A DNA stretch of 63,425 nucleotides, the filler included, from Octopus bimaculoides (lineage: Eukaryota), in NCBI RefSeq assembly GCF_001194135.2. It is 9 parts of 9 records of this genome, joined end to end, with 100 filler letters (N's around TTAATTAATTAA, not from the genome) between each part and the next. Parts side by side here need not be neighbours in the genome. Positions count along the whole stretch, not along the records: positions 1 to 4,835 come from NC_068986.1; positions 4,936 to 24,333 come from NC_068988.1; positions 24,434 to 35,901 come from NC_068983.1; 6 more parts are not named here. One strand, written 5' to 3'. Both the position numbers and the translations under genes were made by a program. Positions 300 through 31,164 of the stretch are shown here, one piece after another. The notes below the pieces were generated by a model. That model searched no databases. It was not told where the DNA came from and saw nothing but the letters and a program-made list of their open reading frames with translations. Within the stretch, counting starts at the first letter, position 1, and every line of letters begins with the position of its first letter.

Positions 300-3200
300 C
301 ATATTTCAACTAACCTAAATTCTGCATATATATATATAAAAGAGGTGAGAACCGAAATCCTTCAAAGGGATGTCAAGCATTCAAGTCTGCCAGTACAATC
401 CAAGTAAAGAATATATATAAAAATATATATTCAGTATTTGCAAAAACAGTAAAAGAAGTATAAGGAAAAGAAGTATAAGGAAAGGAAAGAATTATAAGGG
501 TAGATGGACTTTAATTCAATTCAAATCCAAGTTGGTACAAAACCAATATACATTCTACAAATTGTTTCAGAGTCTAATTAATTCCAAAGACAAAGAAAAA
601 AACTCTTCATGGAATACAAATTGGATTCCTCATCAGGAATTACATACTGGTATGAATGATTACAACCAATAAAAATATACAAAGACCTTTCATAGCCCAG
701 ACATGAAAAAATAAATAAAAGATAACAAGAACGCCAGATATTCAAAACAAGAATGCGGAGTGTATCTTCTGTTCTCAACATATGAATGAAAAAGGAAGGG
801 GCGAATAAAGTAAAAGACAGCCATTCAACTCTGTGTGAGTATATGCATATACGTGTGTATATGAAAAAGTGAGGTATGTGAATGTTTGAGTGTGTATGCA
901 CGTGCATATCTGTGTGTGTGTGGGAATGTGTGAGTGTGTGCATGTGTAATGGAAACATTTCCGTGCGTGCATAATGGAAACATACAACTCTGAAGATAAA
1001 AACTGAGATCATTCCAATTTTGTTTGAGTATGTGTATGTATGTGTGTGATTGGAAAATATTTGAATGCTTGTATCTGTGTTGGTTCTGTTCTTCATTTTG
1101 TATCTTGTTTAAATAACAATTAACCATCAATTATAAACAGCACGGGGTCAGCTAATAAATAAATGTAGAAATAACAAAATGTTAGTAAGATAATTAAATC
1201 CACCGTGTCACAAAACAAATGGACCGAAATTAAAATACTCACAATATCTTTAAAAAAAACCAAAAAACAAGTTAGAGGAACCAACTAGAGTAGTAAAGAA
1301 CCAAAAGGTGAAACCAAAATTATCAAATTCTCAAAAACCACTATTTCATCTAATAAAACACTTATAATAGACAACCTTATTTAAAATTTTTAAACACGCA
1401 TTTATTCTTATGAACACTGAAAAAAAAAACCCCTTTCAGATTTAGAGTTTAGCAGCCTTTTTCTAGAAAATAGAATCAAAAATAATTCCTCGGAACAAAG
1501 AGAGCAGAACCTATTACCAATCCTATAAGCCGGGGCCGCCCCTAGAATGCTCCATTCAATAAAGTACATTTTATTATTATCTTCAAGATTCCAGATGAAA
1601 TTACTAAGACTAGTAGAAGAAGTCCTATTTCTGTTCCTAAAGGAATAGTAATGATTCAAAACCCTTTCCTTAATATAATTGGTAGAAGAACCAATATAAA
1701 AGTAATCATTACCTTCAGAAATAACTTTAGCTTGATAGACGACTTCCTTACGCTTACAAAAATTACCAAATAAACAATTTTCTTTGTTTCTACAATCATA
1801 AAGGGAATTCTCACCCCTATTTGCACCTTCATAAATTGAATTATCATTAAGTGAAAGGCTATTACCTCCACTATTATTGAAACTTATAATAGAAATAGAA
1901 TTCAAACTATCCCTGCCAAACTGGCTATTAGGAAAATCATTAACATTGGTACTCATAAAATGAGTCTAGTTAGTATTAACTAAGTTATCTTGAAGATAAA
2001 AACTGGATAATTTCTTTTCATTAATAGAAGAAATAATCTGAGATAGATTCCTAGAGACTGAAAAAGCAACTTTAATGGATCTCAGATTCTAAATCCCATA
2101 ATGTCTACTTTTTTTTATTGAAGTGCTTTAAAAACAATTTATACACCGCCCCAACTAAGTTACTAATGTTACTCTTGTCCAAAACTAAATTAGAATGACT
2201 TAAATTATTCACATTATAGACCAACTTCAAATTATAACCTTTTATCACATAATTATATTTATATTTGTGAACATTAATATCTGGAACTAAAGGGTTACTC
2301 TCACAGTAGTTATGCCCACTTCCTGATTTATATTTACCGTTTAGATTTGGGACATTTAAAATCAAATCCATTACCATTACTAGTAAGTTTCGATTTATCA
2401 GTATAATCATTGTTAGGAGTATTTAGGTATTCAATTTTCTTATTGCAACCAGCCTTTTTAAGGGCTATATTATAGTAATCAGCATTCCTATCAAAAACTA
2501 CCTTACAAGAAGATAATACAGAAATTCTAGAGATATTGTAAATTTGAAATTTTTTAACACTGCCTGGATGATTACTTTCTGAATTAATATATTTCAGATT
2601 AGAGTTAGACTTATGATAAAGTTTGTAAATATCAGTAACATCTATTCATGCTCATTTACTATGGTGATAGAAAAACTGAAGCTAACTCTAAAAAACCAGT
2701 AAAACTTCTTATATAGAGCCAATTTCCTATTTGTAACATTCTTAACAGTGAACAAAGAGTCATTGCAGTATAAATCCCCTGCAAGTTCCGGAAGCTCACA
2801 TCCTAACTTAAACAAAATGTAACTACCTACAATATCCATAACCTCAGCAGAATCCCCGGAATATCAAAGCCATCATAACTATCACTTCTAATCCAAAACT
2901 TATTCTCAAATTCAATAACAGATCTTCTAGCCACCAAAATGATCTTAATTTCATCCATACTTAAGTCAGAATATTAGGGCCTTGTTTAAAATGACTTGAT
3001 TGATAGAAGAATAATAGTTATTAATATCTATTTGAATAAACCTATTCCTACCCTTATCTTCAATTTTATTAAACCAATTGATAACCTCATAGGAGTTAGA
3101 CCAAAGATACAACTTAATCTTATTCTTAAGAATTGGAATATACTTGCTTTAAATGGCCTTACTGAGTCTCCGAATCTGATTTCCCTGGGTAAATCAGGCA

Positions 3201-3743
3201 CACTGTAGGATTACAATAAAAGTTTTCCTTATGGATTTAAAAAAAAAAAATTAAATCTTTTAGGGACCATTGGTTCAGTTCTATCATCCAAATGATCATC
3301 CTCCAGAATACATTTAGCAATTAAGTTATGAGTCCTCAAAATGTTCTGGTCAGCTATTTTGTAAGCTTTGGTAATTTCCTTTTTCAATAATTTGTGATAC
3401 GGATTTAAGTCAAGATTATATAAGTTTCTGGTCTTATCAGAATGAACAATGATGCCTTTCTTTTTTTTCTTAAGTCAGAAACAATAGATTTCAATTTCAA
3501 TAAATGTTTCTTACCAAAGTGAGGGAATTTTTTAAACTTAACGTTCTTTACAAGGTCCTATAATTTATTTTCAAAACTGGTAAGATAACTGTTCAAAGGT
3601 AGAAATTTCATAGTTTAAAAAATTTTCTTATATATATTTTCATTTTCATTAACAGCTTCTAGATCAATATCTGGTGACTCAGTCCTTCTATCAAAATAGA
3701 ATGTTTTCCTTCTGAGTCGATGAATAAATTCAGTAGTTTTTAT

Positions 3744-3745
<2 letters not shown>
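300..3745 (-). mobile_element. Penelope-like retroelement PLE-1: near full-length decayed ORF (N-terminal region, RT, GIY-YIG) plus 3' UTR
   Basis: Minus-strand frames give [15 protein letters not shown] (N-terminal), DIVGSYILFKL...GDLYCNDSLF (degenerate YRDD RT core, 2642-2839) and VVYQAKV...FYIGSSTNYIKERVLNHYYSF...EWSILG...CSLCSEE (GIY-YIG, 1408-1956). Many stops and frameshifts. Confidence 0.85.
551..641 (-). ncRNA. Degenerate minimal type I hammerhead ribozyme in the PLE-1 3' UTR
   Basis: Minus strand reads AAUUC-CUGAUGA-[61 nt, GGAAUCCAAUU...AAUUAGACUCU]-GAAAC-AAUUU-GUA-GAAU. Helix I is AUUC/GAAU; the core is intact. Confidence 0.65.
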
Positions 3746-3826
<81 letters not shown>

Positions 3827-3899
3827 ATATATATATGGATATATATATATGGATATATATATGTATACATATATATATATGCATATATATGTATATGTA

Positions 3900-3940
<41 letters not shown>

Positions 3941-3962
3941 TCATCATCATCATCATCATCAT
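3746..3962. repeat. Compound microsatellite (GT)n/(AT)n/(CAT)n
   Basis: Direct reading. Confidence 0.95.
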
Positions 3963-4830
3963 CGTTTAACGTCCGCTTTCCATGCTAGCATGGGTTGGAC
4001 GATTTGACTGAGGACTGGTGAAACCAGATGGCTACACCAGGCTCCAATCTGATTTGGCAGAGTTTCTACAGCTGGATGCCCTTCCTAACGCCAACCACTC
4101 AGAGAGTGTAGTGGGTGCTTTTACATTTCACCCGCACGAAGGCCAGTCAGGCGGTACTGGCAATGGCCATGCTCAAAATGGTGTATTTTATGTGCCATCC
4201 GCACAAGAGCCAGTCCAGGGGCACTGGCAATGATCTCGCTCGAAAAATCCTTACACATGTGTCACAGGCACAAGTGCCAGAAAGGCGACGCTGGGCACAG
4301 GTGCCATCCCGATTTCGCTTGCCCCAATAAGTCTTCACAAGCTGAGTTTCGTGTCCAATGAAGGAAAGGTATGCATAAGTGGGCTGGCTACACCCCTGGC
4401 AGAGGCCTTGGGTTTAGGTCTCACTTGGCTTTCCGGGTCTTCTCACGCACAGGATATTTCCAAAGGTCTTGGTCAGAAGTCATTGCCTCGGTGAGGCCCA
4501 ATGTTCGAAGGTCTTGCCTCACCACCTCAGCCCAGGTCTTCCTGGGCCTACCTCTTCCATGGGTTCCCTCAACTGTTAGGGTTTGGCACTTTTTCACACA
4601 GCTATCCTCATCCATTCTTGTCACATGTCCATACCAGTGCAATCGTCTCTCTTGCACACCACAACTGATGCTTCTTATGTTCAGCTTTTCTCTCAAGATA
4701 CTTACACTTTGTCGGGTATGCACACTTACATTACTCATCCATCGGAGCATACTGGCTTCATTCCTTACGAGCTTACACATGTCCTCAGCCGTCACAGCCC
4801 ATGTTCCACTGCCATGTAGCATGGCTATAG
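3938..4830 (-). mobile_element. RTE-clade LINE 3' end (ORF C-terminus plus 3' UTR ending in a (GAT)n tail)
   Basis: ORF 4421-4822 contains RRLHWYGHVTRM...GRGRPRKTW...DQDLWK. The UTR continues to ...gcatggaaagcggacgttaaacgatgatg. Confidence 0.9.
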
Positions 4831-4969
4831 ATATANNNNNNNNNNNNNNNNNNNNNNNNNNNNNNNNNNNNNNNNNNNNTTAATTAATTAANNNNNNNNN
4901 NNNNNNNNNNNNNNNNNNNNNNNNNNNNNNNNNNNATTGATGTTGTTTTATTGTCTATTTTGATTTTTG

Positions 4970-6050: not shown

Positions 6051-7150
6051 GTCCATATATACAATTTTTCTTCAGTGAAAAGTTGACTCCATTAGATTAA
6101 AATATCAGTAAGACATTCATGTGACTAATCCATCCATTAAATTTTCACATTTAGAAAGGATGGTCTGGCAACATTTTGTACATCAAACCTTTAACCAGCC
6201 AATGCCAATGTAGGCTTTAATTCAAGGAGTTACATAATAGAAGTTAATTTAAAAAGTTGAATCCATGTGTGTAATTTTCTGATGAGTGATCACTTCAGCC
6301 AATGCTTTATATTTGTTTTGGTCAAGGTGCTTGCTTCTATGGCTTAAACTTCTTTTGTTTCCTTGATAAATTGATTTAACCAACTCATTGCATTATTTTT
6401 CTTTTATTATCCTCTTATTTAAAAGGACAGTGCCTATCTGCATTTAGAGGATCCTCAAGACTGGAAAAATGTATCCTCAGACCTAAGACCTGATCAGAAT
6501 GCTTATAAGGGTGAAAACGCTGTTAAAATTATTCAAGATGCCACGTGGTGGGGCAGTTAAACTGGGTGACAGATTAAATCTACCACCCAAGTAAACCATG
6601 GTAAGATTTGAACTCTGAACACAAAGAACCAAGGCAAAACTCACAAAGCACCTGATCCAATGGTCTTACAGATCTATTAATTTACTTCCCTTAAGTTATG
6701 AAATCACTTCTATCAATACTGAAAGTATGAAAGGTGCAATTGACCTTGGTAGGATTTGAACACAGAGAATGCATGACATTCTATCTGATGCTCTAATAAC
6801 TATATCATTCCACCAAGTTTTTGATCAATAAAACTATAAACGGATTGTATTCCAGAGGAAATGGAGAGGTATGCTCGAAACACTTGAAGCATAACTTAAT
6901 TCAGAAACAGACTCAGAATAATCCTGTATGTGACAAGGCAGGTTCTTTTAACTACATGTTCAACCTATCCAATGGATTTTATGGGATAACCATGTTATAT
7001 CACTTGGCTATAGTAGCTCACATGTATAATACATCTTACCTCTCTATAATAGTACTTTGCTATGATGGTTCCTAGCTATAAGGTACCTCTCTATGATGGT
7101 ATCTTGCTTTAATGGTAACACGTAAAATGAAAACAGAACACAAAGGATTC

Positions 7151-7251
7151 CACGGTACACGTTTTTCAAGCTTTATACACAAACAGTCGTTGCATCATTA
7201 TATGAGTATATAATTGATAGAAAGGATGGTTTAAAGCTATCTTCAGCCGCA
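7151..7251 (-). ncRNA. Hammerhead motif, PLE-2 3' copy (helix III broken)
   Basis: UGCGG-CUGAAGA-UAGCUUUA...UAAAGCUU-GAAAA-ACGU-GUA-CCGUG. Helices I and II pair; GAAAC is changed to GAAAA. Confidence 0.6.
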
Positions 7252-9397
7252 AACATTTCCAGTCCCAAGATTACATCACAAAGAAAAAAGAAAAAGAGAG
7301 AAAAAAAGGAAAAGTCCACTTAGTATTATCCATTGTAATATGCTTATCCTTTAAATTGTTATATCTACATAAAAGTTCCTTGGTATTCAAAAATCTGTCC
7401 AAATTGTACCACAATTCAGGGTAGAGTGAATGATAAATAAATATAACTAGCGTATATGAGATAGAAGGAGAAGATAAAAAATGAAAGAAGTTAGAGGTTA
7501 AAACAATATAAAATATGAAAAAACAATATAAAATAAGAGATAAAATACAAAAATAATAGAAGTCAAATCGAGAGTAATATAAGAAAAAATACGGAAAGTA
7601 AAGTAAGATGCATATAAAAGATTTAGTAGGGTTGGAATAAGATAATAAAGGAAATAAAGGAATTAGGATAAAGAAATGGAGAAATAAAAAAATGAAATAA
7701 AAGAAGTAAAGAAAAAGAGGAAAAAGAAAAGACCTAAAAATAGAAAAAGAGATAAAGAGAAATAAAGAGATAAGATCCTAAATGGTAGAAATACATGATG
7801 CTGTCTTGGCCAGGAATAGTGGGGTGGGGGATCATATATAATTTCTTAGCTAGACTAAGGTTGAAATATATCCTTCTGATGAGTGGTCAGTCTACCCAAA
7901 GCACACCACTACAACTTAAGTATATGAACTTATCTATTATACTAGTACATACACTTACTTAGAAGATAGATAAATAAATAATAATGATGGAAGTGGTAAA
8001 GAGTAATTAGAAAATATAAAAACTAAAAAAAAAGAAAAATTAGAAAATGTAAAAAAAAGGTTAGAAAATATAAAGAGGAAAACTAGGGTTGAAGTTAAAA
8101 ATTAAAAAAATTAAAAGTATGGGGAACAATTATAATAGTAGTAATATAATAGTAATAATGTATTACATAATGTAATAGTAATAAAAAATAACAACAATAA
8201 CAATAATAATAATAATATAATGGTTTGAAAAAGTACATTGATTGGAAAAATATTGTGATTGGGGAAGTTTCAGCTTATCTATTTGTGTAAATTATATGTC
8301 ATAGAGCAACTATTACAATAATCGTGTTGTAATCGTTTGGGTATTGCTATATGAAGTTAAAGGACTCTGGGTTTGTATCTCCTAATGAATACTAGTATAA
8401 TCTTAATATATAAAGCTGAAGTTGTGTGTCTGTGTGAAGCCTTTTTAAAAGTTTATAGAAATCCACATTTTCCACTTTTTCGTAAAAACTTTTACATCAA
8501 TGGAATTTTCTCGATGTGAACTTTCCAGTGCAGTAATTAGATTTTTTAAATTCCGTTTATTTTGTGTGATTTAAGGGAGATTTGGCTGTTGTTTCTAGCA
8601 ACTTTTATATTTCTTCCCTTCTACCTGGAACGCCGTNNNNNNNNNNNNNNNNNNNNNNNNNNNNNNNNNNNNNNNNNNNNNNNNNNNNNNNNNNNNNNNN
8701 NNNNNNNNNNNNNNNNNNNNNNNNNNNNNNNNNNNNNNNNNNNNNNNNNNNNNNNNNNNNNNNNNNNNNNNNNNNNNNNNNNNNNNNNNNNNNNNNNNNN
8801 NNNNNNNNNNNNNNNNNNNNNNNNNNNNNNNNNNNNNNNNNNNNNNNNNNNNNNNNNNNNNNNNNNNNNNNNNNNNNNNNNNNNNNNNNNNNNNNNNNNN
8901 NNNNNNNNNNNNNNNNNNNNNNNNNNNNNNNNNNNNNNNNNNNNNNNNNNNNNNNNNNNNNNNNNNNNNNNNNNNNNNNNNNNNNNNNNNNNNNNNNNNN
9001 NNNNNNNNNNNNNNNNNNNNNNNNNNNNNNNNNNNNNNNNNNNNNNNNNNNNNNNNNNNNNNNNNNNNNNNNNNNNNNNNNNNNNNNNNNNNNNNNNNNN
9101 NNNNNNNNNNNNNNNNNNNNNNNNNNNNNNNNNNNNNNNNNNNNNNNNNNNNNNNNNNNNNNNNNNNNNNNNNNNNNNNNNNNNNNNNNNNNNNNNNNNN
9201 NNNNNNNNNNNNNNNNNNNNNNNNNNNNNNNNNNNNNNNNNNNNNNNNNNNNNNNNNNNNNNNNNNNNNNNNNNNNNNNNNNNNNNNNNNNNNNNNNNNN
9301 NNNNNNNNNNNNNNNNNNNNNNNNNNNNNNNNNNNNNNNNNNNNNNNNNNNNNNNNNNNNNNNNNNNNNNNNNNNNNNNNNNNNNNNNNNNNNNNNC

Positions 9398-9718
9398 TGC
9401 AGGTTATTTTTGAGAAGTGTTCCCTACTCGGTGGTGTTTCGGAGTTATGTATAATCAGGGCAGCGCAAAAAGTTGTTTTGCACAAGCATTTCTATAGCCA
9501 ATTAGATGGATGAAATTTACGTACGCTTAATAATGTTATGCAAAACAGCCTTCAGACTTTCCCTATTAATTTCATCGTCTTTTGAATTATGAACATATTT
9601 ACATCACAAGGGTATTTTCGTTGTAAGGCTTTCTTTTTTAGTTGATTTTCACCTAGCAAGACTTATCGTAGATGGCGTAATAAGTCACACCCGGACAAGG
9701 TCGGGTTATACTGCTAGT
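9398..9718 (+). mobile_element. Helitron 3' end nested in the PLE-2 3' UTR
   Basis: Subterminal hairpin acccgga-caagg-tcgggt followed by tatactgCTAG|T at 9714-9718. The 5' part is lost in the N gap. Confidence 0.6.
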
Positions 9719-10893
9719 ATTATTATAAAAACATTGAAATGATGAGTGTTATTTAATGTTACCTTTGTGTATTCTAGTGTTATTCGAAATTTTAGAGCCA
9801 GTGACTAAATAGTTTAATAATTTTCCTCTAAAAATGGGATTAGGGATCTCGGGTTATTAAATATGTGTGTATTATATGAGGTCAGAATCTAGCTATGTGA
9901 GGGTAAACTGAATAATTAAAGTAAATAGTTAAGTTGTTTGGGGTAGAGTACGGGCTTCGTTAATTCAATGCCTGAATGGTGGCAGGATGGATCCGACGAG
10001 GGAATTACCAATGAGAGAAGATGATGAAGTGATTATAACTTAAAAGTGGGGACTTAAGGATTATAGTATTTAAAGGTTTTAATCGTTTTATGTATACAAG
10101 ATGGTTTGAATTCTGATCTTTTATTAATTAGCTTGTTCTTTTCAGGGAATCCAATGATTTTCAATAGTTCTAAGGAACAAAACTGGCAACCAGTTCTATT
10201 TTTATAAGTTGCGGCCGATCCAACTACGGACTATCTAAGGTTAAAGTTAATATTTTCGTCTTTAAGTTCCCATATTCTACATGATAATGAAGTGCTACTA
10301 GCCTTATGCCTGAGTCTAAATGATTACCTATGGTTATAGAACCTAGATTTCCAGGAGGAAGAGCACCCAATGTACGTGAGGTCATTCGTTTCAGTAATTA
10401 TTTCGCAAGAATAGACTATGTTTTTGCTAGGCAGTTTCCACGTAAAGGACATATTGATGTTGTTACACAATTGCACCCAACTTTATAATTGTTATGCCGT
10501 CTTATGCTTGCATGTGGAGAGTAACTGTTTATAGGATTGTTATCTTTGTTAGTTCTCGGGTGGTTAAGGTTTACGCCTACATTGCTGTTACTATTATTGT
10601 TGTTACCTCTATTGGGGTTGTTCAAAGTTTCACTAGCTCTATTCTTCCTGCCGTTAACACTGGTACTATATTTATTATTTCTATCAACAATATTATTAAT
10701 TATATTGGAATTGTAGCTCGTATAATTATTGTCTTGGTTACTCTTTGAGGTGGAGTTGGATACCAAGGAACTTTTATGTAGATATAACAATTTAAAGGGT
10801 AAGCATATTACAATGGATAATACTAAGTGGACTTTTCCTTTTTTCTCTCTTTTTCTTTTTTCTTTGTGATGTAATCTTGGGACTGAAAATGTT

Positions 10894-10994
10894 TGCAGCT
10901 GAAGAGAACTTTAAACCATCCTTTCTATCAATTATATACTCATATAATGATGCAACAACTGTTTGTGCATAAAGCTTGAAACACGTGTACCACG
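10894..10994 (+). ncRNA. Hammerhead motif, PLE-2 inverted pLTR copy (core and helix III intact, helix I mismatched)
   Basis: CUGAAGA 10899-10905, 72-nt helix II segment closed by GAACUUUA/UAAAGCUU, GAAAC 10978-10982, ACGU loop, GUA 10987-10989. Confidence 0.7.
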
Positions 10995-11240
10995 GAATCT
11001 TTGTGTTCTGTTTTCATTTTACGTTTTAATATATTCTTTCACCTCGACCACTATCTGGCATATACAGGTGCTTACACTTATCAAGTATTATCTCTAAAAT
11101 TTAATGGTAACACTATAGATTGTTGGACAGGGTTCTTGTTAGTCATATGTTGTATCTAAAGAAACAGCACAAGAGAATTTTAATTTTTGTCAGCCTACTT
11201 CTTACAAAACCAGATTTCATCTTATTATCAAATAATAAAA

Positions 11241-13138: not shown

Positions 13139-14333
13139 GGGCTGGACAAGCATCATAATTTTGAAATATCTATAAAAAAACAAGGTTGTGTGCTTGCCCC
13201 CACCCTATTTGGCTTCTTCTTTGCAGTCATGCTGAAACATGCATTTAGGACATCAACTGATGGTGCTTATCTCTACACCAGATCAAGCAACAAATTGTCT
13301 GGTCTGTCGAGGCTAAAAGCAAAATCCAAAGTGTGCCAGGTACTCATCAGAGAAATGCTGTTTGCAGATGATGCAGCACCGATAGTGCACTCTGAAGAGT
13401 AAATGCAGCACCTCATTGACAAACTTTCAAAGGCCTGTCAGGAATTCAACCTGACTATCAGTCTGAAGTAGACCCAAGTAATGGGTCAAAGTGTCAAACC
13501 TGCCTCCACCATCACCATCAACAGCTACAAGCTGGAGGTATTCCTGCAATTCACCTATCTCAGCTCTACCATCTCTGATGACCTCTCCCTGGACCCTGAG
13601 ATCAACAGGCAAATCAGACAAGCATCCCCCACATTTGCTAGGCTCACAAAGAGAGTCTGGAAAAGCAAACAAACTGGCTGCAAACACTAAAATTGGTGTC
13701 TATAAGGTGTGCATCCTTAATAAGCTACTTTATGGCAGTGAGACAGGAGTGGCATCTAAATATCTTTCACCTTCTTAATATGAGACACATCTTGGACATC
13801 AATTGGACTGACCACATCACCAACACTGAAGTCCTCAACCAAGCCAAGATACCCAGCACACACATCTTGCTCCAGCAGCATCGTTTGTGCTGGCTCAGTC
13901 ATGTTCATCACAGGTCAGATGGAAGGATTCCAAAAGACCTTCTATATGGGGGAAATGGTCACTGGCAGAAGAACACAAGGACAACCTCATTTTCGTTTCA
14001 AAGACGTCTGTAAGAGGAATATGAAGTTGCTTGATTTGGACGTCCTAAGATGAGAAGAGAAGACAAATAATCACCCACAGTGGAGGCAAATACTGCAAAA
14101 GGGAATGAAGACAGCAGAATAAAAACAGGAACTCACCATCAAAGAAAGCGCACTCAATGGAACAAAAAAATCAGTAGCACCGGCAGAGAGCTCCTTCAAA
14201 CGCGGTCGCTGTATGCATGACTGCCACTCCTGTGTGAGCCTGTACAGTCACAACAGATGCTGTACCACCATCAGCAGCTGACATGGTTTCTTTGGGGGCA
14301 GATCCATAGCTAAGACCAACGGATGCCTACTAT
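13136..14333 (+). mobile_element. RTE/BovB-like LINE, 5'-truncated RT and 3' end
   Basis: KQGCVLAPTLF...EMLFADDA, then FTYLSSTISDDLSLDPEINRQI, then RLCWLSHVHHRSDGRIPKDLLYG. Frameshifted; ends ...acggatgcctacta. Confidence 0.9.
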
Positions 14334-14419: not shown

Positions 14420-17400
14420 AGTGGGGACAAATATGTTTTCTGTGTGTGTGTATTCATACTGATAGAGATATTTCACTCAAGCTATTTATAGTGCATTAAA
14501 CAGTTTTTGTTTTTGTTTTTCATGCTAATTTAAACATTCTATTTAATCTGAGTTTCCACCTCATTTCAGTTAATTTTGCTATCCTATCAAGAAGTAAACA
14601 CCAAATTCTAACTGCCAAAGGAAACATTGTACTTATAGTCACAAGAAAGAGTTTGATGACTTGAAGAATCTTATTTGTATATAAAACACATTTGCCAGTA
14701 TCTAGGTCGATTCATAAAGTAATAATTTGTTAAGCTACATGTCTAAAAATTTGAAACAATTGAGTTTTAATACAATATCTCCATCAACAGAAAAAGAGAG
14801 ATTGGTAATAATTAGGCTTTCGATTCTTTTTTGGAACCTCTCCAAAAACTGAGTACCTGCCTCTAACAGTTAGCTCAACATTTAGATTTAATTTTAAAAG
14901 CTTAAAATGAATGTTGGTATATTAGCATGCTAAGACATACACTGTGTAATACATCATTATCTGAGATATATATTGAAGACGTCTCTAACACCAAACATTT
15001 GGGTGGCTCCAAAAGAACAAAAAGAGACAGTAAGACAGAAAAAATGATATATGTACACTTATGTTTGTGTGTGTGTGCATGTGTGTATGAGAACTGCATA
15101 TTCATGTGTGTATGTCTATGTGTGTGTTTGTGTATGTGTGTGTATGTTCAAACATATTTATGTTCTTATACATGTATACTTGTATATGTGTGTATGTGTA
15201 CACATATACACATATACAGATATACTCACACACTACTTTACATACATATTTGATATGTTCGTATGTGTGTATGTAAGTATAAATGTATTAGAAGTGATAC
15301 ATTTTATTGCAAAATCTTTGATCAGTTTAATTGTCATCCATAAAAATTATTGTTGTTGTTGTTGTTGTTTACTTTATTTCTTATTTTGTGTACTTACCTC
15401 TAAGAAATCAATAACTTCTCATAACATTGGAAATTTTGTGTAAGTTGTAGTGTGGAATAGACTTGAGAAAACTGATTTTTTCTGTGTTGTTTTCTCAACA
15501 GTAATATGTTTTGTTGTTCCTACTTCATAACAACTAGTCTTCTACCAAGAAAATGATTGCTTCACAATATCTAAAGTTGTAATGGCATTTAACAAAAATA
15601 TATATATCATTTCCGAACCGAGCAATCACAATGCAATCAAATATTGTTTACACTGTATGAAATAATTCTTTAAAATTGTTCATGTAGTTGTTGTTGTTGT
15701 TGTTGTTGTCGTTAGTAGTAGTAGTAGTAGTAGTAGTAGTTGGTTGGGTGAAGCAATAAGTGCTGAATTGATGTAAATTAGTTGTCAATAATATACGTAT
15801 AGATACATGCCTACTTATGTACATACACATACATACATTTATGTGCATGTACTGTAAGGTATATATGTATATTGATATAGATATGTACATTGATATATAT
15901 ATATATATTTATGTATNNNNNNNNNNNNNNNNNNNNNNNNNNNNNNNNNNNNNNNNNNNNNNNNNNNNNNNNNNNNNNNNNNNNNNNNNNNNNNNNNNNN
16001 NNNNNNNNNNNNNNNNNNNNNNNNNNNNNNNNNNNNNNNNNNNNNNNNNNNNNNNNNNNNNNNNNNNNNNNNNNNNNNNNNNNNNNNNNNNNNNNNNNNN
16101 NNNNNNNNNNNNNNNNNNNNNNNNNNNNNNNNNNNNNNNNNNNNNNNNNNNNNNNNNNNNNNNNNNNNNNNNNNNNNNNNNNNNNNNNNNNNNNNNNNNN
16201 NNNNNNNNNNNNNNNNNNNNNNNNNNNNNNNNNNNNNNNNNNNNNNNNNNNNNNNNNNNNNNNNNNNNNNNNNNNNNNNNNNNNNNNNNNNNNNNNNNNN
16301 NNNNNNNNNNNNNNNNNNNNNNNNNNNNNNNNNNNNNNNNNNNNNNNNNNNNNNNNNNNNNNNNNNNNNNNNNNNNNNNNNNNNNNNNNNNNNNNNNNNN
16401 NNNNNNNNNNNNNNNNNNNNNNNNNNNNNNNNNNNNNNNNNNNNNNNNNNNNNNNNNNNNNNNNNNNNNNNNNNNNNNNNNNNNNNNNNNNNNNNNNNNN
16501 NNNNNNNNNNNNNNNNNNNNNNNAGATCCATTATTTAGGCAGAATGGTATACATATAAGATTCCAGTACCTTGTGAGTAAATTCCAATAGTATTTAAAAT
16601 TGGTCATTCCAAGTATAGAGTTTGTACACGGTGTTATTGAATTGAGCATTTTATTTAAAGTGACTTAAAAGTTGGGAATGTATTTGTAAGGTCAAATCGA
16701 AAACAGGAAGAGAGGAACAAAGAAAAGAAAAAATAGAAAAGAAAAAGAAAAGCAATGAGAGAGATAATAAAGAGATGAAGAGAGGAAAAGTGTACCAGTT
16801 AGTGGTCAGTCAAGATAAATTGATAGAAGGAATGGGGATGTGACAGTGACAGAGAGAGAAAGATATGAGGTTATAAAAAGATGATAGGGTAAAGAGTAAA
16901 GGAGTGTCAGAAAGAAGGAATGGGGGTTGATGGGTGATAAAGAGTGAAAGGTATGAGAGTGTAAAGAGTAAAGGAGTGTCAGGTATGTAGTGATAGAGCC
17001 TAAGTGAGGGGCAGAGAGAGTGGGGTAGGTGTAGTAAAATAGTGAAATGAAGAATTTGGGAATATAGGTTAGGTTGGTTAGGAATTATGTACCCCATTAC
17101 CATTGAGGAATACAATAAATTCATAAAGAAAGATCTCAACAAATCCTACAAGCTGGCACCAACATCTGCCCTAAATGAAATTAACACCAACCACTGCAAA
17201 CTTATGAGGAAATTACAAGTAGATGACTGAACGGAACCATACTGCCCTACACCTCCACACTTTAACCTCAATGATCACAAGGACTTTATTACCAAACCTT
17301 CAATACACCTAATATGCCCCATCAAATCTGACCTAGGAAGGGTAAGCAAAAACATTTTAGACAAAATAATATCAATCGTCAAGGACAAATTAAATGTTAA

Positions 17401-19289
17401 TCTATGGTACCACACTTGTGAAGTTATTACATGGTTTCACCTTCCAAAAATCGAAAACTCATATTCCTTTCTACAATTCGACATAAATGGTTACTACACT
17501 TCTATTACTCCTAAACTTAGCTTGGAACCTTACTAACCTAACCCCACTAGAAATTAACATAATACTTAATGCCCGCAAACCCTTATTTCTTTTGAAAACA
17601 AACTCTGGTGCTGGGTCAATCACCATAGCAACCTATTCTACATAACCATAAGCTCATCTGATTCAGCTCAGGTCTCTGACTTAGTTGGACTATATATACT
17701 TCACCAGCTCCATATACATTTCCCTAACATCAAGGGAGACCTATACAGGGATGACGCCTTATTAGTTACCAAAAGCATAAATAAATCCTCCTTAGAAAGA
17801 ACTAGAAAGGATCTACATAAATTCTTCTCTAACCTAAACCTATCTATCGCATTCGAAAATGCTCACAAAACTGCTAACTTTCTTAAAGTAAGTCTAAACT
17901 TATCAACCTCTCAATACTCCCCTTACCACAAACCTAACCAATATCTTAAATACCTTAACATCCACTCCAACCACCACAAATCCACTTTCGATAACATAAC
18001 CAAGGGCATCTCAACCCGCATATCCGACCTCTCTTCCGCTGAGGAAATTTTCAATAATCCCGCATCATGTTACAATCAAGCACTCGCCGCTAGCGGCTTT
18101 TCCCAACAAATAAAATACATCCATAACACCAGGCTCAAACAATATATGTCTCAAATCACATCTTAAAGACACACCAACCATCACAATTGCAACCAACCAC
18201 ACACACTCGTCGATGGAACCCTGGAAGGTCTTACACCTAGGCAACCTAGACCCCCTACACATACATTTAATACTAGGTTAAAACTAAAACAACTAAAACA
18301 GCTAACAACAACAGGCCTCGCCACCACATCCATTCTCCAAAAATATAGATAGCACTGCTTTATCTAAAAACTTAGATAGCACTACTCCCAGACACCCTAA
18401 AAAAAGCGGCGGGTGCTCTATTCTGTGGTACATACCCCCATTCTGATTTAAGAACTTAGCTAAATCCTTCTTTAAAATACTAGACTCTAACTTCTCTCGG
18501 CAACATAAATATCATTCTATCTTTAATAGATTCACTCTGAAACTATCTTATTCTGCCCCACCCAACTTCGAATCTATTCTTGCAATCTCTAATAAGCAAA
18601 AGCTTTCTCTTTACTATCAAAACTCACATAATTACAACTCTAGTCATGCGAACTGCAACTGCAACTGCCCGGAACACCACCACAATCTCCATCACTTTTA
18701 CAAATAGTACAATTAATAACAACAATGGTAATAATAACGTTAATAATACTAATAATCTAGAATTTTCTACCCACTTCTCTAACCTCTCCTTGACAATATT
18801 ACCTCCTCCATTCCTTAACACAATAAATAAACATAATGAGGCACTAAGCACATGTAGTCACCGCTTTTTTCATACATTCAAATTCTACCACAAATCCAAA
18901 TGCCTAAATGACCACACAGTATATATCCACAATACCCCTTAGGTAATCCCAATAACCTTATAAATCTACATTTTAACTCCTAATTCCTCTTTCATACTTG
19001 AATATCACAACCATTTAATTATATTCGTATGTATGTGTGCATACGTATATGCGCGTGTGTGCATGTGTGTGTATGTGTGTGTGTGTGTGTGTGTATGTAT
19101 GCAAGGTAGCTGTGTGTGCAGGGGTGACAATACATACAGATACACGTATGTATGGGTGTAAGTATGTACATATACATATGAGTACGTGTTGTATGCGTAG
19201 GTGTTGATATGTATAAATATCTATAGACATGTTTAATATATGCATGTGTATATATCTTCACATATATATTTCGTATGTGTATTTCGTGT

Positions 19290-19605
19290 GCAAGATTCTT
19301 GATGTGGATACGTGTGTTGAAAGAAATGTAGTCTACAAAATAAGCTGTATGGATGGTGAGTGTAAAAACAGAAACACCACATACATAGGTGAGACGGCAA
19401 GAAGTTTGGCTGAGCGTGTAAACGAACATTGGAGGGACTATAATAATCAAAAACAAACCTCGGTGCTCTACCAGCATGCCAAAGAACAACATGGTGGTGT
19501 ACTGGACAGAATTAACATAGAAATCCTGTCTAGACACCCCGGTGACGCATCTTTGCGACAAATACAGGAGTCGGTCCTCATAACTGAAACGCAACCAATT
19601 TTAAA
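19290..19605 (+). mobile_element. GIY-YIG endonuclease fragment of a different PLE subtype, open frame
   Basis: CVERNVVYKISC...TYIGETARSLAERVNEH...LYQH...RQIQESVLI. Runs into the N gap. Confidence 0.85.
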
Positions 19606-20885
19606 NNNNNNNNNNNNNNNNNNNNNNNNNNNNNNNNNNNNNNNNNNNNNNNNNNNNNNNNNNNNNNNNNNNNNNNNNNNNNNNNNNNNNNNNNNNNNNN
19701 NNNNNNNNNNNNNNNNNNNNNNNNNNNNNNNNNNNNNNNNNNNNNNNNNNNNNNNNNNNNNNNNNNNNNNNNNNNNNNNNNNNNNNNNNNNNNNNNNNNN
19801 NNNNNNNNNNNNNNNNNNNNNATAAATTAATTAAAAAGTCTCTATCTGATCTGATATAAACGAAATTGTTACAAACACACATATGGACGCACATACTTAC
19901 ATATAAGAACGAATACATAAGTGCGTGCACACATATGAGCGTGCACACATACGAGCTTGCACACACTCACATGCTCATACCAAACAGTTTCGAAACAACG
20001 CCAAAACAACGCCAGATCATATATTCAAAATAAATGGAAGTGGAGAGACAAGTTACTGAAGAGATTGCAAGAGTGCAATGAAATAATTTAACAAAAAACT
20101 ATATAAATTAATAAAGGACTGAACCAGTGCGTGTGTTCATTACCGGCATAATGCCTCTCCCAAGGTTTAATTGTATTTCACATATATATATTCTCCAACT
20201 ACTAAGCACTGACCTGTCCTCTAACCAACGTAACCTATATTCCCAAATTCTTCATTTCACCATTTTACTACACCTACCCCACTCTCTCTGCCCCTCACTT
20301 AGGCTCTATCACTACATACCTGACACTCCTTTACTCTTTACACTCTCATACCTTTCACTCTCTATAGCCCATCAACCCCCATTCCTTCTTTCTGGCACTC
20401 CTTTACTCTTTACCCTATCATCTTTTTATAACCTCATATCTTTCTCTCTCTGTCACTGTCACATCCCCATTCCTTCTATCAATTTATCTTGACTGACCAC
20501 TAACTGGTACACTTTTCCTCTCTTCATCTCTTTATTATCTCTCTCCTTGCTTTTCTTTTTCTTTTCTATTTTTTCTTTTCTTTGTTCCTCTCTTCCTGTT
20601 TTCGATTTGACCTTACAAATACATTCCCAACTTTTAAGTCACTTTAAATAAAATGCTCAATTCAATAACACCGTGTACAAACTCTATACTTGGAATGACC
20701 AATTTTAAATACTATTGGAACTTACTCATAAGGTACTGGAATCTTATATGTATACCATTCTGCCTAAATAATGGATCTACAGATGCAATATCACTGCATA
20801 TCTCACGTCTATTTTCATTCCTCCACTTCACTCTCTATTTCATATCTTCTCTAAAATAACTATTGCTTAACCATTTTCTCACACC

Positions 20886-20933
20886 GTCTCGGATGAAGGG
20901 ATATATAAAATATCCCAGAAACAGCTGTAAAAC
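20886..20933 (+). ncRNA. Compact minimal type I hammerhead motif at the PLE-3 3' end (core U4->G lesion)
   Basis: GUCU-CGGAUGA-A-GGGAUAU-AUAAA-AUAUCCC-A-GAAAC-AGCU-GUA-AAAC. Perfect 7-bp helix II and palindromic AGCU loop. Confidence 0.75.
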
Positions 20934-24599: not shown

Positions 24600-25850
24600 C
24601 TTTAAAGTAGTATCTCCTTGTAGACACAATTGTCAGTAATCATACTGTTCCCATTTCTCTCAGCCAATATTTTTGCATTAGCCTTCTTTCAAACTCTAGA
24701 TAATGCAACATACAGCTGACCATATGAGAAGAATTGTGTCGGAAGATATACTCCAATTTGTTCAAAAGTTTGTCCCTGTGTCTTGTTGCACGTCAAGGCA
24801 AAAGCTGGCTTGAGAGGAAATTGTTTGAGTGTAAATGTGAATGGAAATTCCATTTCTTGAGATTCATGTGGTATTCTTCTGATTAGCAGAGTTGATCCTG
24901 CATAAGGACCAGAAGCAACCTCAGCCTCAATAACATGATCATGTTAACTGAATGTGATGTAGTGTGTGCCATTGCAATGTCCATTAGTAGCATCTAAATT
25001 TCTCAGAAGCATCATGCATCGTTTTTTCTTCAGTTTAAGAATGTGTGGTGGAAACCCTGATGGTGTAAGTTTGTTGATGAACTCGATTGGGTACAGAGTT
25101 TCATTATCAACTGTATCTGAACATTTTTTACATTATTTACATTTGACGGATATTTGTCTTCATCTTGTTTGTTTTTAACACAGTTTCGGCTGATATACCC
25201 TCCAGCCGAAAACGTTGTTAACAACAAACAAGATGAGGACAAATATCCGTCAAATGTAAATAATGTACATAATTCATCATCACTTAAATATAGAACTGTA
25301 TCTGAGCTTCTGTATATTTTTAGCTCCCCAGACAAAATGTGCTGCTTCATTTGTTGGTGTAACAATGGTTCTATTTGCAAGCCACACAGGGTTTGTGAAG
25401 TTATTTTTGAGGTCAGCATATACAAAATCACATAGACCTGAAAGAATACCACTTTCAAGGCAAAGGTCATTGGGTAATTTTATCTTGAATCCACCTAGGT
25501 TTTGCTCAACAGAAATGTTACCATGTCCTACATCAAGAAGATAATTAGCAAACTCTTTCATCAGAATGACCTTTTGTAAGAAGTCTTAGATTGGTTGTCA
25601 ACTCCACTACTTCCACATAATCGCAAAGAAAAGATCACTTTAGTGTTGCATCAAGAACTTGTGATCTGACACTATTATTTTGAAGTAGAATATTCTTCTC
25701 TCGAGACACCCTAACCACTCAGTCGTGTGTAGCGGAAACAGAATCATGTCTACGTCTCCGTGCATATTCAGATATCTTTTTCGTTCACTTTGCCCTGGTT
25801 TCATCTAATTTAGTTGCCTGCCTTTCTCTCTGTCATTGTGCCTTTGCTGC
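24600..25850 (-). mobile_element. Helitron RepHel remnant (PIF1-like helicase C-terminus, internally deleted)
   Basis: KEFANYLLDVGHG, IVTPTNEAA, LYPIEFINKLTPSGFPPHILKL, MLLRNLDATNGHCNGT, KQFPLKPAFALTCNKTQGQTFEQIGVYL...SYGQLYVALSRV, NCVYKEILL*. Confidence 0.9.
25121..25293. mobile_element. Foldback (hairpin) insertion with 12-bp flanking direct repeat inside the Helitron helicase
   Basis: Arms 25129-25192 and 25203-25267 are reverse complements. AACTGTATCTGA occurs at 25109-25120 and 25294-25305. Confidence 0.7.
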
Positions 25851-27460: not shown

Positions 27461-27538
27461 GTTTTTATAATTATTATTATTATCGTTGTTGTTGTTGTTG
27501 TTGTTGTGGCTGCTGCTACTGCTGCTGTTACTGCTGCT

Positions 27539-27569
<31 letters not shown>

Positions 27570-28450: not shown

Positions 28451-28499
<49 letters not shown>

Positions 28500-29159: not shown

Positions 29160-29920
29160 TATCATTCGTAAGCGTAACCAAGAGCCCACTCCCAGCTGTA
29201 ACGGTTAAAACCCTGAAACTTGCCCACTTGACCAGACATATATGATAAACTCCTTTGTATATAATGCAGAAGTTACAGCAACGCTTCAAAATAACGTAAC
29301 CGAAAAGAAAAATTACAATTAGTTAAGAGAAAGCAATTTCAAAAGATGCTACGCAAACTACCTACCTTCATTCCGGTACATTGACAAAAGTAAAGCCTCT
29401 AACTTAGCTAGCTTCTGATGAGGTTTGAAAAGCAACTGCACACCACATACAAACAAGTGGGGAAATCCATGCCATATGCTAATGGGTCTAAGTGATGCAA
29501 ATTATGCATAGTAGAAAGATCGCATATTCTTTTTAGATATAAGAATTCCACTGCACTACTAAATCCCAGACTCGAAATTTTCAGAAATGTAAACATAACA
29601 ATTTTTTTAATTTTTATGGTGAACTGAATGACATGACCCTCTTCAGATTGAGCAGCTGTCTCGCAGACTTTGGACCCCCTCCTGCTGAACTATTCTTCAA
29701 CAACTAGCTTAACTACGACTTTACGATCAAAGGGGACATACCTTTAATTTTATTTCTTTTCCTTTTCCGTTTCTATTCACCCTTCCACTTTTTGTATCCA
29801 GCTTCTAGCTTTTTTTCAGGATTTCTCTTGTACCAGCGTCCTGTTTTTTTTTTTAATTGAATAGACCATGTCTCAGAGCCTGAGGCTCGGTCAGAAACAT
29901 AAAGTGTGTAATAAAAACCT
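29160..29920 (+). mobile_element. PLE-4: decayed GIY-YIG 3' fragment and UTR
   Basis: SCNG*NPETCPLD...FVYNAEV...NFKRCYANYLPSFRY...LCIVERSHIL...LLNPRLEIF. Confidence 0.7.
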
Positions 29921-30003
29921 GCCTAGACACGCATCTCCAATGCAAGAAACTACTAGTAACACATATCTTTATATTCTGCACTATAAATTAAATATATATA
30001 TAG

Positions 30004-30058
<55 letters not shown>

Positions 30059-30109
30059 TATGTGTGTATGTGCATTTTTTCAATGTGTACAAGTAACACG
30101 GAAAGATAA

Positions 30110-31164
30110 ATAAATAGTTACCCGGGTAGCAAAAGTTCATATAAGTACCAAGGGTGTAACAGCCTACTTATAAAGGCAGAAATTCCGGAGTTTAGTGAAA
30201 TGTGTTGGAATGACATATATAAATAAATAAAGGGAGTTAAACGCAGGTGTTATTCAAATCTTTATACTTCCGACATATGCTTCGAAGAAAACATTGGTAT
30301 TGTTCCAGAAGGAATAAAATGATGTAAAACAATGCAATATTCTCATCAGGGAAAGAAAGAGAAACAAAACGCATCAATAAGACATTTTAACCGAATGTGA
30401 TTACTACATATATGTTGAAGGGAACGCTGGTAAGTTATTTTTTAAAAAACCGTTAATAGATATAACGTCATTCGTTTCCTTGGCAGTAATTCTAAGTCTA
30501 GAAACTCTATTTATCAATGTAAAATTACTCCCGGTTCTGTCGTCTTTTTTATATAGGTAGTTCTTCATCTCAGTTGTACAAAAGAACATCTAACCATTAC
30601 TCTACATTTAGACGTATCAATAAACGCAACAATATTGGACTTAGCAAATTAATTTGGTCTCTAAAGAACATAATAAGCAATTTGATTTGGAATGGAATAT
30701 TTTGTCCAGGTCCTTTCCTTATGATAAAGGTAAATCTTTTTGTTCGCTCTGTAACGGTGAACTGTATTTCATCCTGTTCTCTGAGAATTCTCTTGTAAAC
30801 ACGTTTAAAGAACGCGTTTATCGTTGCAAACATTGGCAAAAACATAACTTTAGTTCTACTTGTCTATAAAATTCGACCTATAACTGTCATTTCCACTAGA
30901 TGTATCTATTTCCACACCTTTAACCTTTATTCCTATTCACCTATCACACTATCTTTCTCCTCCTTCTCTCTCTATAAATTGCTTTTGACATTATATCTAT
31001 TAACGGTTTTTTAAAATAACTTACCAGTGTTCCATTCGTCATATATGCAATAATCACATTCGATTAAAATGTCTTATTGATGCGTTTTGTTTCTCTTTTC
31101 TCTCTGGTGAGAAGATTGCATTGTTTTACATCATTTTCTTCATTCTGGAATAATACCAATGTTT
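30110..31164 (+). mobile_element. PLE-5: short Penelope-like 3' fragment with inverted pLTR
   Basis: GIY-YIG C-terminus 30560-30870 (NHYSTFRR...LSKLIWSLK; FDLEWNILSRSFPYDKGKSFCSLCNGEL). 30288-30470 is the reverse complement of 30986-31164. Confidence 0.8.
30267..30355 (-). ncRNA. Hammerhead motif in the PLE-5 inverted pLTR (GAAA->GAAG lesion)
   Basis: CUUUCC-CUGAUGA-[59 nt]-GAAGC-AUAU-GUC-GGAAG. Helix I pairs over 5 bp including one G-U; palindromic AUAU loop. Confidence 0.7.

What the first reader, a model, noticed from the sequence alone, without database searches (positions are those of the whole stretch)
551..30355. Four divergent Penelope-like elements each carry a minimal hammerhead ribozyme with a different palindromic helix III loop
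Seen: the same architecture (helix I, CUGANGA, helix II, GAAAC-NNNN-GUH, helix I') lies downstream of a PLE ORF at 551-641 (-), 7151-7251 (-)/10894-10994 (+), 20886-20933 (+) and 30267-30355 (-). Helix and flanking sequences show no similarity to each other by eye, yet the loops are ACGU, AGCU, AUAU and AAUU(U), all self-complementary. Established: PLE pseudo-LTRs in other animals encode minimal type I hammerheads whose 1-2 bp helix III and palindromic loop let them cleave as dimers. Inference: loop covariation across lineages means selection for dimeric self-cleavage during PLE RNA processing in this genome. I cannot tell whether these families are already described.
Basis: partly seen in the sequence, partly recalled or inferred. 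Interest (0 to 1): 0.82.

Follow-up and report, generated by a model that had tools for sequence, protein, structure and literature searches.

The report
Long-armed hammerheads in octopus Penelope retrotransposons
Four decayed Penelope-like retrotransposons, likely from an octopus, each carry a hammerhead ribozyme motif whose palindromic third stem would likely let two copies cut RNA together; this is already published for such elements, but three of the four have an unusually long second arm.

Summary
The motifs are real: a relaxed descriptor finds exactly the five sites, against 0.21 per resampled window. They belong to four decayed, 33-46% identical families of Hydra-clade Penelope-like elements (PLEs), in an apparently octopod sublineage. 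Details need correcting. Four of five copies have a core, helix III or helix I defect. Two sit in inverted 5' copies, antisense to their ORF. They are not 'minimal'. For family 4, reads from three organism labels show that most copies have the intact GAAAC and better helix II pairing. In 43 clusters of related Hydra hammerheads, 46 of 57 helix III pairs that cannot form within one hairpin are Watson-Crick, which supports dimer pairing. PLE hammerheads with palindromic helix III, the dimer model and a Hydra-1_Obim hammerhead are published (PMC4209133, PMC8557442). What looks new: three families have a 59-72 nt helix II region (10-25 nt in the 43 clusters, 11-26 in the published Hydra table), outside the published descriptor, and three have perfect 8-nt palindromes. 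A further compact hammerhead at 20052-20092 was missed. Cleavage is untested. Verdict: a structural variant of a known kind.

The parts
550..642 (-). Family 1 hammerhead: helix I 4 bp, core 1 at 636-630, 61-nt helix II region (629-569), helix III 565-557 (9-nt interrupted palindrome), cleavage site after 556
   Evidence: covariance model E 0.0011; base stem of helix II pairs 8 of 10
1411..3653 (-). Element 1: frameshifted Hydra-clade RT and GIY-YIG ORF; ends about 775 nt upstream of its hammerhead. The link to the hammerhead rests on strand and distance only
   Evidence: tblastn; DKT motif and endonuclease without CCHH
7116..7390 (-). Element 2 sense pLTR copy with hammerhead 7149-7253 (helix I 7 bp, 72-nt helix II region, 15.2 mismatch)
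   Evidence: 95% inverted match to 10756-11028; the minimum-energy fold gives helix I and the long helix II unaided
8401..9717 (+). Helitron-like insertion (TC start, hairpin plus CTAG end; label recalled) interrupting the 3' region of element 2; holds a 760-N gap
   Evidence: termini read
10057..10482 (-). Element 2 linker (CxCx5C) and GIY-YIG endonuclease, frameshifted, 5' truncated
10756..11028 (+). Element 2 inverted 5' pLTR copy with hammerhead 10894-10994 (intact cores, palindrome ACACGUGU, damaged helix I and helix II base)
16524..17081 (-). Element 3 inverted 5' pLTR copy, running into the N gap 15917-16523
   Evidence: 98% inverted match to 20221-20778
17087..18671 (+). Element 3 Hydra-clade RT, broken and 5' truncated; endonuclease region interrupted or decayed
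   Evidence: 83% to an O. bimaculoides protein; tblastn
19322..19603 (+). GIY-YIG with CCHH-type cysteines of a second PLE of another clade, nested in element 3
   Evidence: Pfam PF01541 E 3.6e-4, below the curated cut-off; 856 relatives at E<=0.001; clade not settled
20052..20092 (+).
   Evidence: 0 of 200 resamples give such a hit; fold; model E 0.54
20221..20933 (+). Element 3 sense pLTR with hammerhead 20886-20933 (U4 changed, compact 7-bp helix II, palindrome ACAGCUGU, helix I 3 of 4)
30215..30470 (-). Element 4 inverted 5' pLTR copy with hammerhead 30267-30355 (59-nt helix II region, A15.1 changed in this copy, loop AUAU); many family copies end near 30215
   Evidence: majority letters and loose ends
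30523..30866 (+). Element 4 Hydra-clade GIY-YIG fragment, frameshifted
30986..31164 (+). Element 4 sense pLTR copy, cut off by a GT microsatellite before the second core
   Evidence: 90% match to 30289-30470; alignment

Best explanation
These are decayed copies of four Hydra-clade Penelope-like retrotransposon families whose pseudo-LTRs carry type I hammerhead motifs, and in intact parent elements two identical motifs would likely pair through their palindromic helix III to cut the RNA at both ends. Steps. Shown: the ORF fragments are Hydra-type; the motifs lie in repeated pLTR copies (families 2-4); most family-4 copies have an intact core; related intact elements carry the same motif on both sides of the ORF, 2.4-2.8 kb apart. 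Inferred: a 2-bp helix III is unstable alone (+2.1 to +2.5 kcal/mol), while the 8-9 nt palindromes of two motifs form a shared duplex (-4 to -11 kcal/mol), completing two active sites that cleave after H17 and release a unit-length RNA, probably helped by the element's own protein. Inferred: in this sublineage three families lengthened the helix II region to 59-72 nt while keeping a paired base next to the core, which hammerhead chemistry tolerates. The window's own copies are likely inactive: they are mutated, and with an inverted 5' repeat each has only one sense motif.
For: Non-random motifs. Hydra features in the ORFs (compared with PMC8557442 section 11). Family-4 majority letters: T at 30280 restores GAAAC (125,933 of 127,770 summed depth in X1, 59,865 of 61,246 in X13, 164,756 of 167,150 in X17; 35 of 37 and 35 of 50 RNA reads in X21); C at 30339 and A at 30302 add helix II pairs. 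The two family-2 copies complement each other's defects. Survey of 92 related loci: 75 motifs, 43 clusters; 46 of 57 monomer-impossible helix III positions are Watson-Crick; in 9-mers 21 of 24, with all four pair types, against a partner-shuffle mean of 7.2, reached by 0 of 10,000 shuffles. 11 of 13 loci with motifs on both sides have the same motif in direct orientation. Helices I and II covary in 39 aligned motifs (145 cells changed on both sides against 39.8 shuffled). Published: Schistosoma PLE motifs cleave weakly as dimers and not as monomers (PMC4209133); the Anolis PLE hammerhead needs the element protein (PMC11167929).
Against: No cleavage was tested. Majority letters were obtained for family 4 only; only 40 of 323 difference rows were shown. 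Families 1 and 3 rest on one decayed copy each. Whole-motif folding z-scores are weak (-0.2 to -1.6), and only 7148-7254 among the five folds into the hammerhead shape unaided. The covariance model misses 3 of 5 sites. The 43 clusters are not phylogenetically independent, and in 10-mers the central pair is Watson-Crick in only 8 of 14. A helix III of 2 bp plus tetraloop is described as typical of invertebrate retrozyme hammerheads, most of which cleave efficiently (PMC7229834). In Anolis, hammerhead mutants still insert in vitro, and no RNA-seq ends were seen at the cleavage site.
Confidence: 0.7

Rival explanations
1. The motifs are true hammerheads but work as monomers, held by the element protein or by a contact made by the long helix II arm; the palindrome is a retained ancestral trait or only lengthens helix III.
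For: 2-bp plus tetraloop helices III occur in efficiently cleaving invertebrate retrozymes. The Anolis PLE motif cleaves in a single-motif RNA once protein is added. The window's insertions have only one sense motif each.
Against: Complementarity is kept, with changing letters, at positions that leave loops of 0-2 nt and so cannot pair in one hairpin: 46 of 57. All three 8-nt octopus loops are perfect palindromes with different letters. (In the protein-assisted assay two RNA molecules could still pair in trans.)
Confidence: 0.17
2. The motif acts mainly as an RNA dimerization or protein-binding signal for packaging or template switching, and cleavage is slow or dispensable.
For: Low in vitro activity of metazoan PLE motifs; cleavage-dead mutants insert normally in vitro; Naiads spread without canonical hammerheads; no read-end pile-up in one RNA run (a library type that does not record natural ends).
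Against: Catalytic-core letters are invariant across the 39 aligned motifs (partly by construction of the search), and the family-4 majority restores A15.1.
Confidence: 0.1
3. The long-spacer sites are chance pairings of a CUGANGA and a GAAAC in AT-rich decayed repeats.
For: No Rfam hit; weak folding z-scores; the descriptor was tuned after seeing the sites.
Against: 5 observed against 0.21 expected, all in PLE pLTRs or just 3' of a PLE ORF; an independent model finds site 1; majority letters improve core and stem at three positions.
Confidence: 0.03

Closest known systems
Hydra-clade PLE hammerheads (Craig et al. 2021, PMC8557442, File S2), including Hydra-1_Obim of Octopus bimaculoides
   Same: C-terminal GIY-YIG without CCHH, DKT motif, CxCx5C linker, hammerhead in the pLTR, inverted 5'-truncated copies, interrupted palindromic helix III, U/U or G/U next to the core.
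   Different: All 26 published Hydra rows have 11-26 nt between the cores and 9-10 nt helix III (my count). Here three families have 59-72 nt and three have perfect 8-nt palindromes. By eye, none of the four motifs matches the Hydra-1_oBim motif, and the RT fragments differ from its protein. ORF-to-motif distances here are 236 to about 1490 nt; in related loci 45 of 47 are 77-518 nt.
Minimal and variant PLE hammerheads (Cervera and de la Pena 2014, PMC4209133)
   Same: Type I topology, extra nucleotide after A9, short helix I, palindromic positions 15.2-16.2 and loop 3, proposed dimer action; listed loops include AGCU, CGCG, GGCC, GUAC and AU.
   Different: The published min-HHR descriptor allows stem II of 3-7 bp, loop 2 of 3-10 nt and no loop 3, so it fits none of the five sites. 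No cephalopod is in its alignment.
PLE-X1 hammerheads of Selaginella (PMC8557442 File S2)
   Same: PLE hammerheads with long loop 2 (about 30 nt), marked as deviating from the canonical structure: a precedent for long helix II regions.
   Different: Plant, endonuclease-less, rDNA-targeted elements of another clade, with different helix III.
Non-LTR retrozymes and newt or axolotl satellite hammerheads (PMC7229834)
   Same: Type I motifs with 1-2 bp helix III and palindromic tetraloop; dimers shown to cleave much better than monomers in axolotl.
   Different: Short non-coding tandem repeats with canonical loop 1-loop 2 contacts that yield circular RNAs; here the motifs flank RT-endonuclease ORFs and no tandem array is seen.

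Membership tests
Type I hammerhead ribozyme | Core C3-U4-G5-A6-N7-G8-A9, G12-A13-A14-A15.1 and U16.1-H17 | tested here: met
   Met in copies 636-, 7246-, 10899+ and in the family-4 majority. Not met in copy 20890+ (U4 changed; family majority not tested) or in copy 30349- itself.
Type I hammerhead ribozyme | Three helices round the core with helix I open-ended | tested here: met
   Helix I 4-7 bp at sites 1, 2a, 4; damaged at 2b and 3. Helix II base 5-10 bp. Helix III 2 bp.
Type I hammerhead ribozyme | Match to an Rfam hammerhead model | tested here: not met
   No hammerhead family among 142 matches at E<=1. The compact site at 20052 is also missed, so these models are insensitive to PLE variants.
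Type I hammerhead ribozyme | Self-cleavage after H17 | not testable with these tools
   Needs an in vitro assay or end-capture sequencing.
min-HHR sensu Cervera and de la Pena 2014 | GAAA-NN-UH with no loop 3; stem II 3-7 bp, loop 2 3-10 nt | tested here: not met
   Descriptor; the five sites have 4-5 nt loops 3 and spacers of 21-72 nt. They fit that paper's 'variants with small palindromic helix III'.
Hydra-clade PLE | C-terminal GIY-YIG lacking the CCHH motif | tested here: met
   [quoted passage not shown] Not readable in element 3.
Hydra-clade PLE | DKG motif changed to DKT | tested here: met
   Element 1 reads SDKT; the region is truncated away in elements 2-4.
Hydra-clade PLE | CxCx5C linker; CxxC and CxH around the conserved E and N | tested here: met
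   Element 2 has CNCVTTSIC; elements 1, 2 and 4 have CxxC before E; elements 2 and 4 have CxH after N. The linker is degenerate in element 1 and cut short in element 3.
Hydra-clade PLE | N-terminal RWK motif | tested here: inconclusive
   Not read in the window fragments; the nearest full-length relatives have RWR, RWM or RWK.
Hydra-clade PLE | Phylogenetic placement with named Hydra families | tested here: inconclusive
   Trees held only Hydra-like loci, no named references or outgroup. Window elements group together (RT support 1.0 for E1, E3, P0002; endonuclease 0.90 for E1, E2, E4) and with one of two Argonauta hians proteins (node support 0.13).
Hydra-clade PLE | Insertion into (TA)n | tested here: inconclusive
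   TA-rich runs lie near elements 1, 3 and 4, but the window is full of them and junctions were not mapped.
Naiad or Chlamys PLE | N-terminal endonuclease and no canonical hammerhead | tested here: not met
   The endonuclease follows the RT in element 1, and hammerheads are present.
Non-LTR retrozyme | Short non-coding tandem repeats, each with a hammerhead | tested here: not met
   Self-comparison shows only single inverted pLTR pairs round ORF fragments.

The most novel reading that the evidence does not exclude
An octopod sublineage of Hydra PLEs carries a high-copy class of long-arm hammerheads, invisible to published descriptors and Rfam. In them a 60-70 nt structured helix II domain would do its own job (binding the element protein or replacing the loop 1-loop 2 contact), and family-specific 8-nt palindromes would act as a code that lets each family's RNAs pair and cleave only with their own kind. 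The 'half-core' motifs reported in Naiads, including Naiad_Ovul, might be the same kind of long-arm ribozyme.
Probability: 0.2. Interest if true: 0.62.

Novelty: new variant of a known kind. Interest (0 to 1): 0.36.

Why it matters
The core claim is a decade old, so the finding adds members, not a principle. Two things are useful. First, the long helix II variant falls outside the published descriptor and Rfam, so hammerhead counts in cephalopods, and perhaps the reported absence of hammerheads in some PLE clades, may be underestimates. Second, the role of PLE hammerheads is still open (PMC8557442, PMC11167929). A set of families with different perfect palindromes, plus the count of 46 of 57 pairs that cannot form in a monomer, gives ready natural variants to test the dimer model by swap and rescue experiments.

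Tried and rejected
No genome is held for this window, so no genome-wide count or family alignment was possible. Rfam: no hammerhead. Pfam: GIY-YIG hits only below the curated cut-off; nothing for the two RT pieces. The endonuclease alignment A2 was too diverse for the metagenome and genome scans and gave one weak viral locus, L001, which was left out of all counts; A3 found nothing in viral contigs. No RNA holder was listed among indexed runs. One RNA run (about 6% read) gave 342 reads, none at 99% identity or more, on both strands, with no end pile-ups; these come from other copies and say nothing on cleavage. I first took the elements for Nematis from memory; rejected, since the features match the Hydra description. 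The site-1 energy used wrong coordinates; one search replaces it. 34 of 92 related loci gave no motif: many end soon after the ORF, several hold a decayed or short-helix motif, and none showed a long spacer. Over all loci one sense hit had a spacer above 30 nt (L021, 64 nt, 4-nt helix III, far from the ORF, probably chance). No motif was found 3' of the fifth Hydra fragment at 62295-62741. The clade of the nested endonuclease was not settled. Three look-ups of earlier findings were empty. Literature searches showed no paper on long helix II hammerheads in octopus PLEs; the library lacks most subscription journals, the Terminon paper (Arkhipova 2017) was not among the hits, and Repbase and Dfam entries could not be checked.


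Full report
Setting. The window is a gapped, microsatellite-rich animal scaffold (4,803 N, 36% GC). The RT piece at 17570-18163 is 83% identical to a protein that NCBI labels Octopus bimaculoides, so the host is likely an octopus. No genome is held.

Observation. All five sites exist. A relaxed descriptor (at most one core mismatch, palindrome of 8-10 nt with at most one mismatch, helix I and II pairing, at most two defects in all) returns exactly these five. One hundred local Markov resamples give a mean of 0.21 and never more than 1. That descriptor was written after seeing the sites. A palindrome-blind, exact-core descriptor, first used on other loci, finds 636(-), 7246(-) and a new site at 20056(+), against 0.165 expected. 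Rfam finds no hammerhead. A model built from 39 related motifs finds site 1 at E 0.0011, 20050-20094 at E 0.54 and 7150-7252 at E 4.6, and misses the other three. 7246(-) has GAAAA, 10899(+) has a broken helix I, 20890(+) has CGGAUGA, and 30349(-) has GAAGC. Spacers between the cores are 61, 72, 72, 21 and 59 nt.

The elements. tblastn maps broken RT or endonuclease pieces at 1411-3653(-), 10057-10482(-), 17087-18671(+), 30523-30866(+) and 62295-62741(-). They show the features that PMC8557442 (section 11) gives for the Hydra clade: C-terminal GIY-YIG without CCHH, DKT, CxCx5C linker, CxxC and CxH round the conserved E and N. The four families are 33-46% identical where they overlap (decay lowers these values). 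In trees with the fetched Hydra-like loci the window elements group together: RT support 1.0 for elements 1, 3 and P0002; endonuclease support 0.90 for elements 1, 2 and 4. Their nearest named relatives are from O. bimaculoides and Argonauta hians. The trees had no named references or outgroup, so 'octopod sublineage' is a suggestion. Elements 2, 3 and 4 each have an inverted, truncated 5' copy of their 3' end (7116-7390 with 10756-11028; 16524-17081 with 20221-20778; 30289-30470 with 30986-31164), a known PLE arrangement. So 10894-10994(+) and 30267-30355(-) are upstream and antisense to their ORFs. For element 1 the tie between ORF and motif rests on strand and a 775-nt distance.

Family test. 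I could lay reads once, on 30100-31160, at 80% likeness: contigs of three DNA runs labelled organisms A, B and D, and one RNA run of organism A. At 30280 most of the depth shows T, which restores GAAAC (125,933 of 127,770; 59,865 of 61,246; 164,756 of 167,150; RNA 35 of 37 and 35 of 50). At 30339 most show C, which lengthens the helix II base next to the core to 5 bp (66,499 of 68,380 in X1). At 30302 most show A, which adds a pair to the inner hairpin (109,162 of 110,228). The sense copy at 31102 has the same letters at the last two places. Only the 40 best-supported of 323 difference rows were shown; none falls in the palindrome, the cleavage site, helix I or core 1, where depth is high, so I infer that the majority keeps the AUAU loop. 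More than 120 contigs cover the motif and depth peaks over it; the tool warns that this is no copy number. In family 2 each copy has what the other lacks, and copy 7148-7254 folds unaided into helix I plus a long helix II (helix II region z -3.0; whole motif z -0.2). Family 1's helix II base pairs 8 of 10, both mismatches one transition from a pair, but its minimum-energy fold is not the hammerhead. Family 3 rests on one copy with a core change.

Covariation across lineages. A full-length Hydra-like alignment fetched 78 metagenome loci (the best 80 of 525 matches, so biased towards P0003 and away from the octopod group) and 14 loci from genome contigs, probably animal DNA in bins. The palindrome-blind descriptor found 75 motifs near the ORF in 58 of 92 loci, in 43 clusters at 75% identity. 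Helix III, counted from 15.1 to 16.1, is 9 nt in 24 clusters, 10 in 14, 8 in 1, 6 in 3 and 4 in 1. Of 57 positions whose pairing would leave a loop under 3 nt, 46 are Watson-Crick. In 9-mers it is 21 of 24 with all four pair types, against 7.2 when partners are shuffled (0 of 10,000 reach it). In 10-mers the central pair is weaker, 8 of 14. Clusters share ancestry, so this is not a formal p-value, but it is the pattern expected if two RNAs pair. Helices I and II covary as well. In 11 of 13 loci with motifs on both sides of the ORF, the same motif recurs in direct orientation 2.4-2.8 kb apart (collapsed-repeat assembly may contribute). Spacers in all 43 clusters are 10-25 nt although up to 120 were allowed.

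Mechanism. From established hammerhead chemistry (my knowledge): the core cleaves 3' of H17 and leaves a 2',3'-cyclic phosphate and a 5'-OH. Computed: the 2-bp helix III hairpins cost +2.1 to +2.5 kcal/mol, while self-duplexes give -10.3, -11.1, -7.6 and -4.1. Inferred: in a parent element with tandem pLTRs, or between two transcripts, two motifs share an 8-9 bp helix III and cut out a unit-length RNA. Published tests temper this. Schistosoma PLE motifs cleave weakly as dimers and not alone (PMC4209133). The Anolis PLE motif needs the element protein, and its cleavage is not needed for insertion in vitro (PMC11167929). Invertebrate retrozyme motifs with 2 bp plus tetraloop mostly cleave well (PMC7229834). 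The window's copies are relics; PMC13282606 dates a PLE expansion in O. vulgaris to about 56 million years ago.

Comparison with what is known. PMC4209133 already reports PLE hammerheads across metazoans with 'small and palindromic Helix III', lists loops AGCU, CGCG, GGCC, GUAC and AU, and proposes dimer action. PMC8557442 calls canonical hammerheads universal in the Hydra clade and tabulates 26 rows, among them Hydra-1_oBim. By my count those rows have 11-26 nt spacers and 9-10 nt helix III. The four motifs here do not match Hydra-1_oBim by eye. Differences: 59-72 nt helix II regions in three families, perfect 8-nt palindromes in three, and long 3' regions. The published min-HHR descriptor caps loop 2 at 10 nt and has no loop 3, so it would miss them. 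Long loops 2 have a precedent in two Selaginella PLE-X1 motifs. Eight searches showed no report of long-arm motifs in octopus; Repbase, Dfam and subscription papers were not available.

What I saw of each paper. PMC4209133: main text parts 1-2 of 4 and the whole supplementary PDF. PMC8557442: passages, sections 3 and 11, supplement part 2 of 59 and searched passages. PMC11167929: passages. PMC7229834: passages and section 14. bioRxiv 10.64898/2026.07.22.740005: part 1 of 5 and passages, supplements not seen. PMC13282606: passages. Others: search listings only.

Verdict. Real, correctly classed in outline, mostly known. A new structural variant (long helix II, 8-nt palindromes) in new families of a described clade. 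Interest 0.36.

Noticed in passing
window 20052-20092 (+): A further compact hammerhead with intact cores and a 5-nt palindromic helix III, about 450 nt after a CCHH-type GIY-YIG (19322-19603) of a second PLE nested in element 3; 0 of 200 resamples give such a hit. It has G after A9 and then an A-U pair, as in the published Hydra-1_oBim motif.
   Followed up: partly
window 62295-62741 (-): A fifth Hydra-type ORF fragment (end of RT and the region after it); no hammerhead found 3' of it.
   Followed up: partly
window 8401-9717 (+): Helitron-like non-autonomous insertion (TC start, GC hairpin and CTAG end; label recalled) inside element 2.
   Followed up: partly
window 7116-11028, 16524-20778, 30289-31164: Three of four Hydra insertions are 5' truncated with an inverted copy of the 3' end joined directly to the truncated ORF.
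   Followed up: partly
L002-L093: In related loci the 5' motif lies a fairly fixed 140-250 nt before the start of the protein match, so cleavage would set the 5' end of the ORF-bearing RNA.
   Followed up: no
L083 1268-6312 and L087, L088, L090: Contigs of one bacterial bin in the genome collection hold several animal-type Hydra PLEs with hammerheads on both strands, likely host DNA in the bin.
   Followed up: no
L084 3001-4828: A Hydra-type PLE ORF with an upstream hammerhead lies in a 491-kb contig titled Denitrobaculum sp. MAG; misassembly, mis-binning or a real insertion was not examined.
   Followed up: no
window 4421-4879 (-), 13392-13700 (+), 22870-24154 (+), 25033-25564 (-): Other mobile-element remnants by eye: an RTE-like LINE tail, another LINE RT piece, an ORF1-like frame with a CCHC knuckle, and a Helitron helicase-like stretch (labels recalled).
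   Followed up: no
P0001, P0026: Hydra PLE proteins of O. bimaculoides and Argonauta hians are named 'GATA zinc finger domain-containing protein 14-like' by NCBI, probably because of their Asn-rich linker.
   Followed up: no
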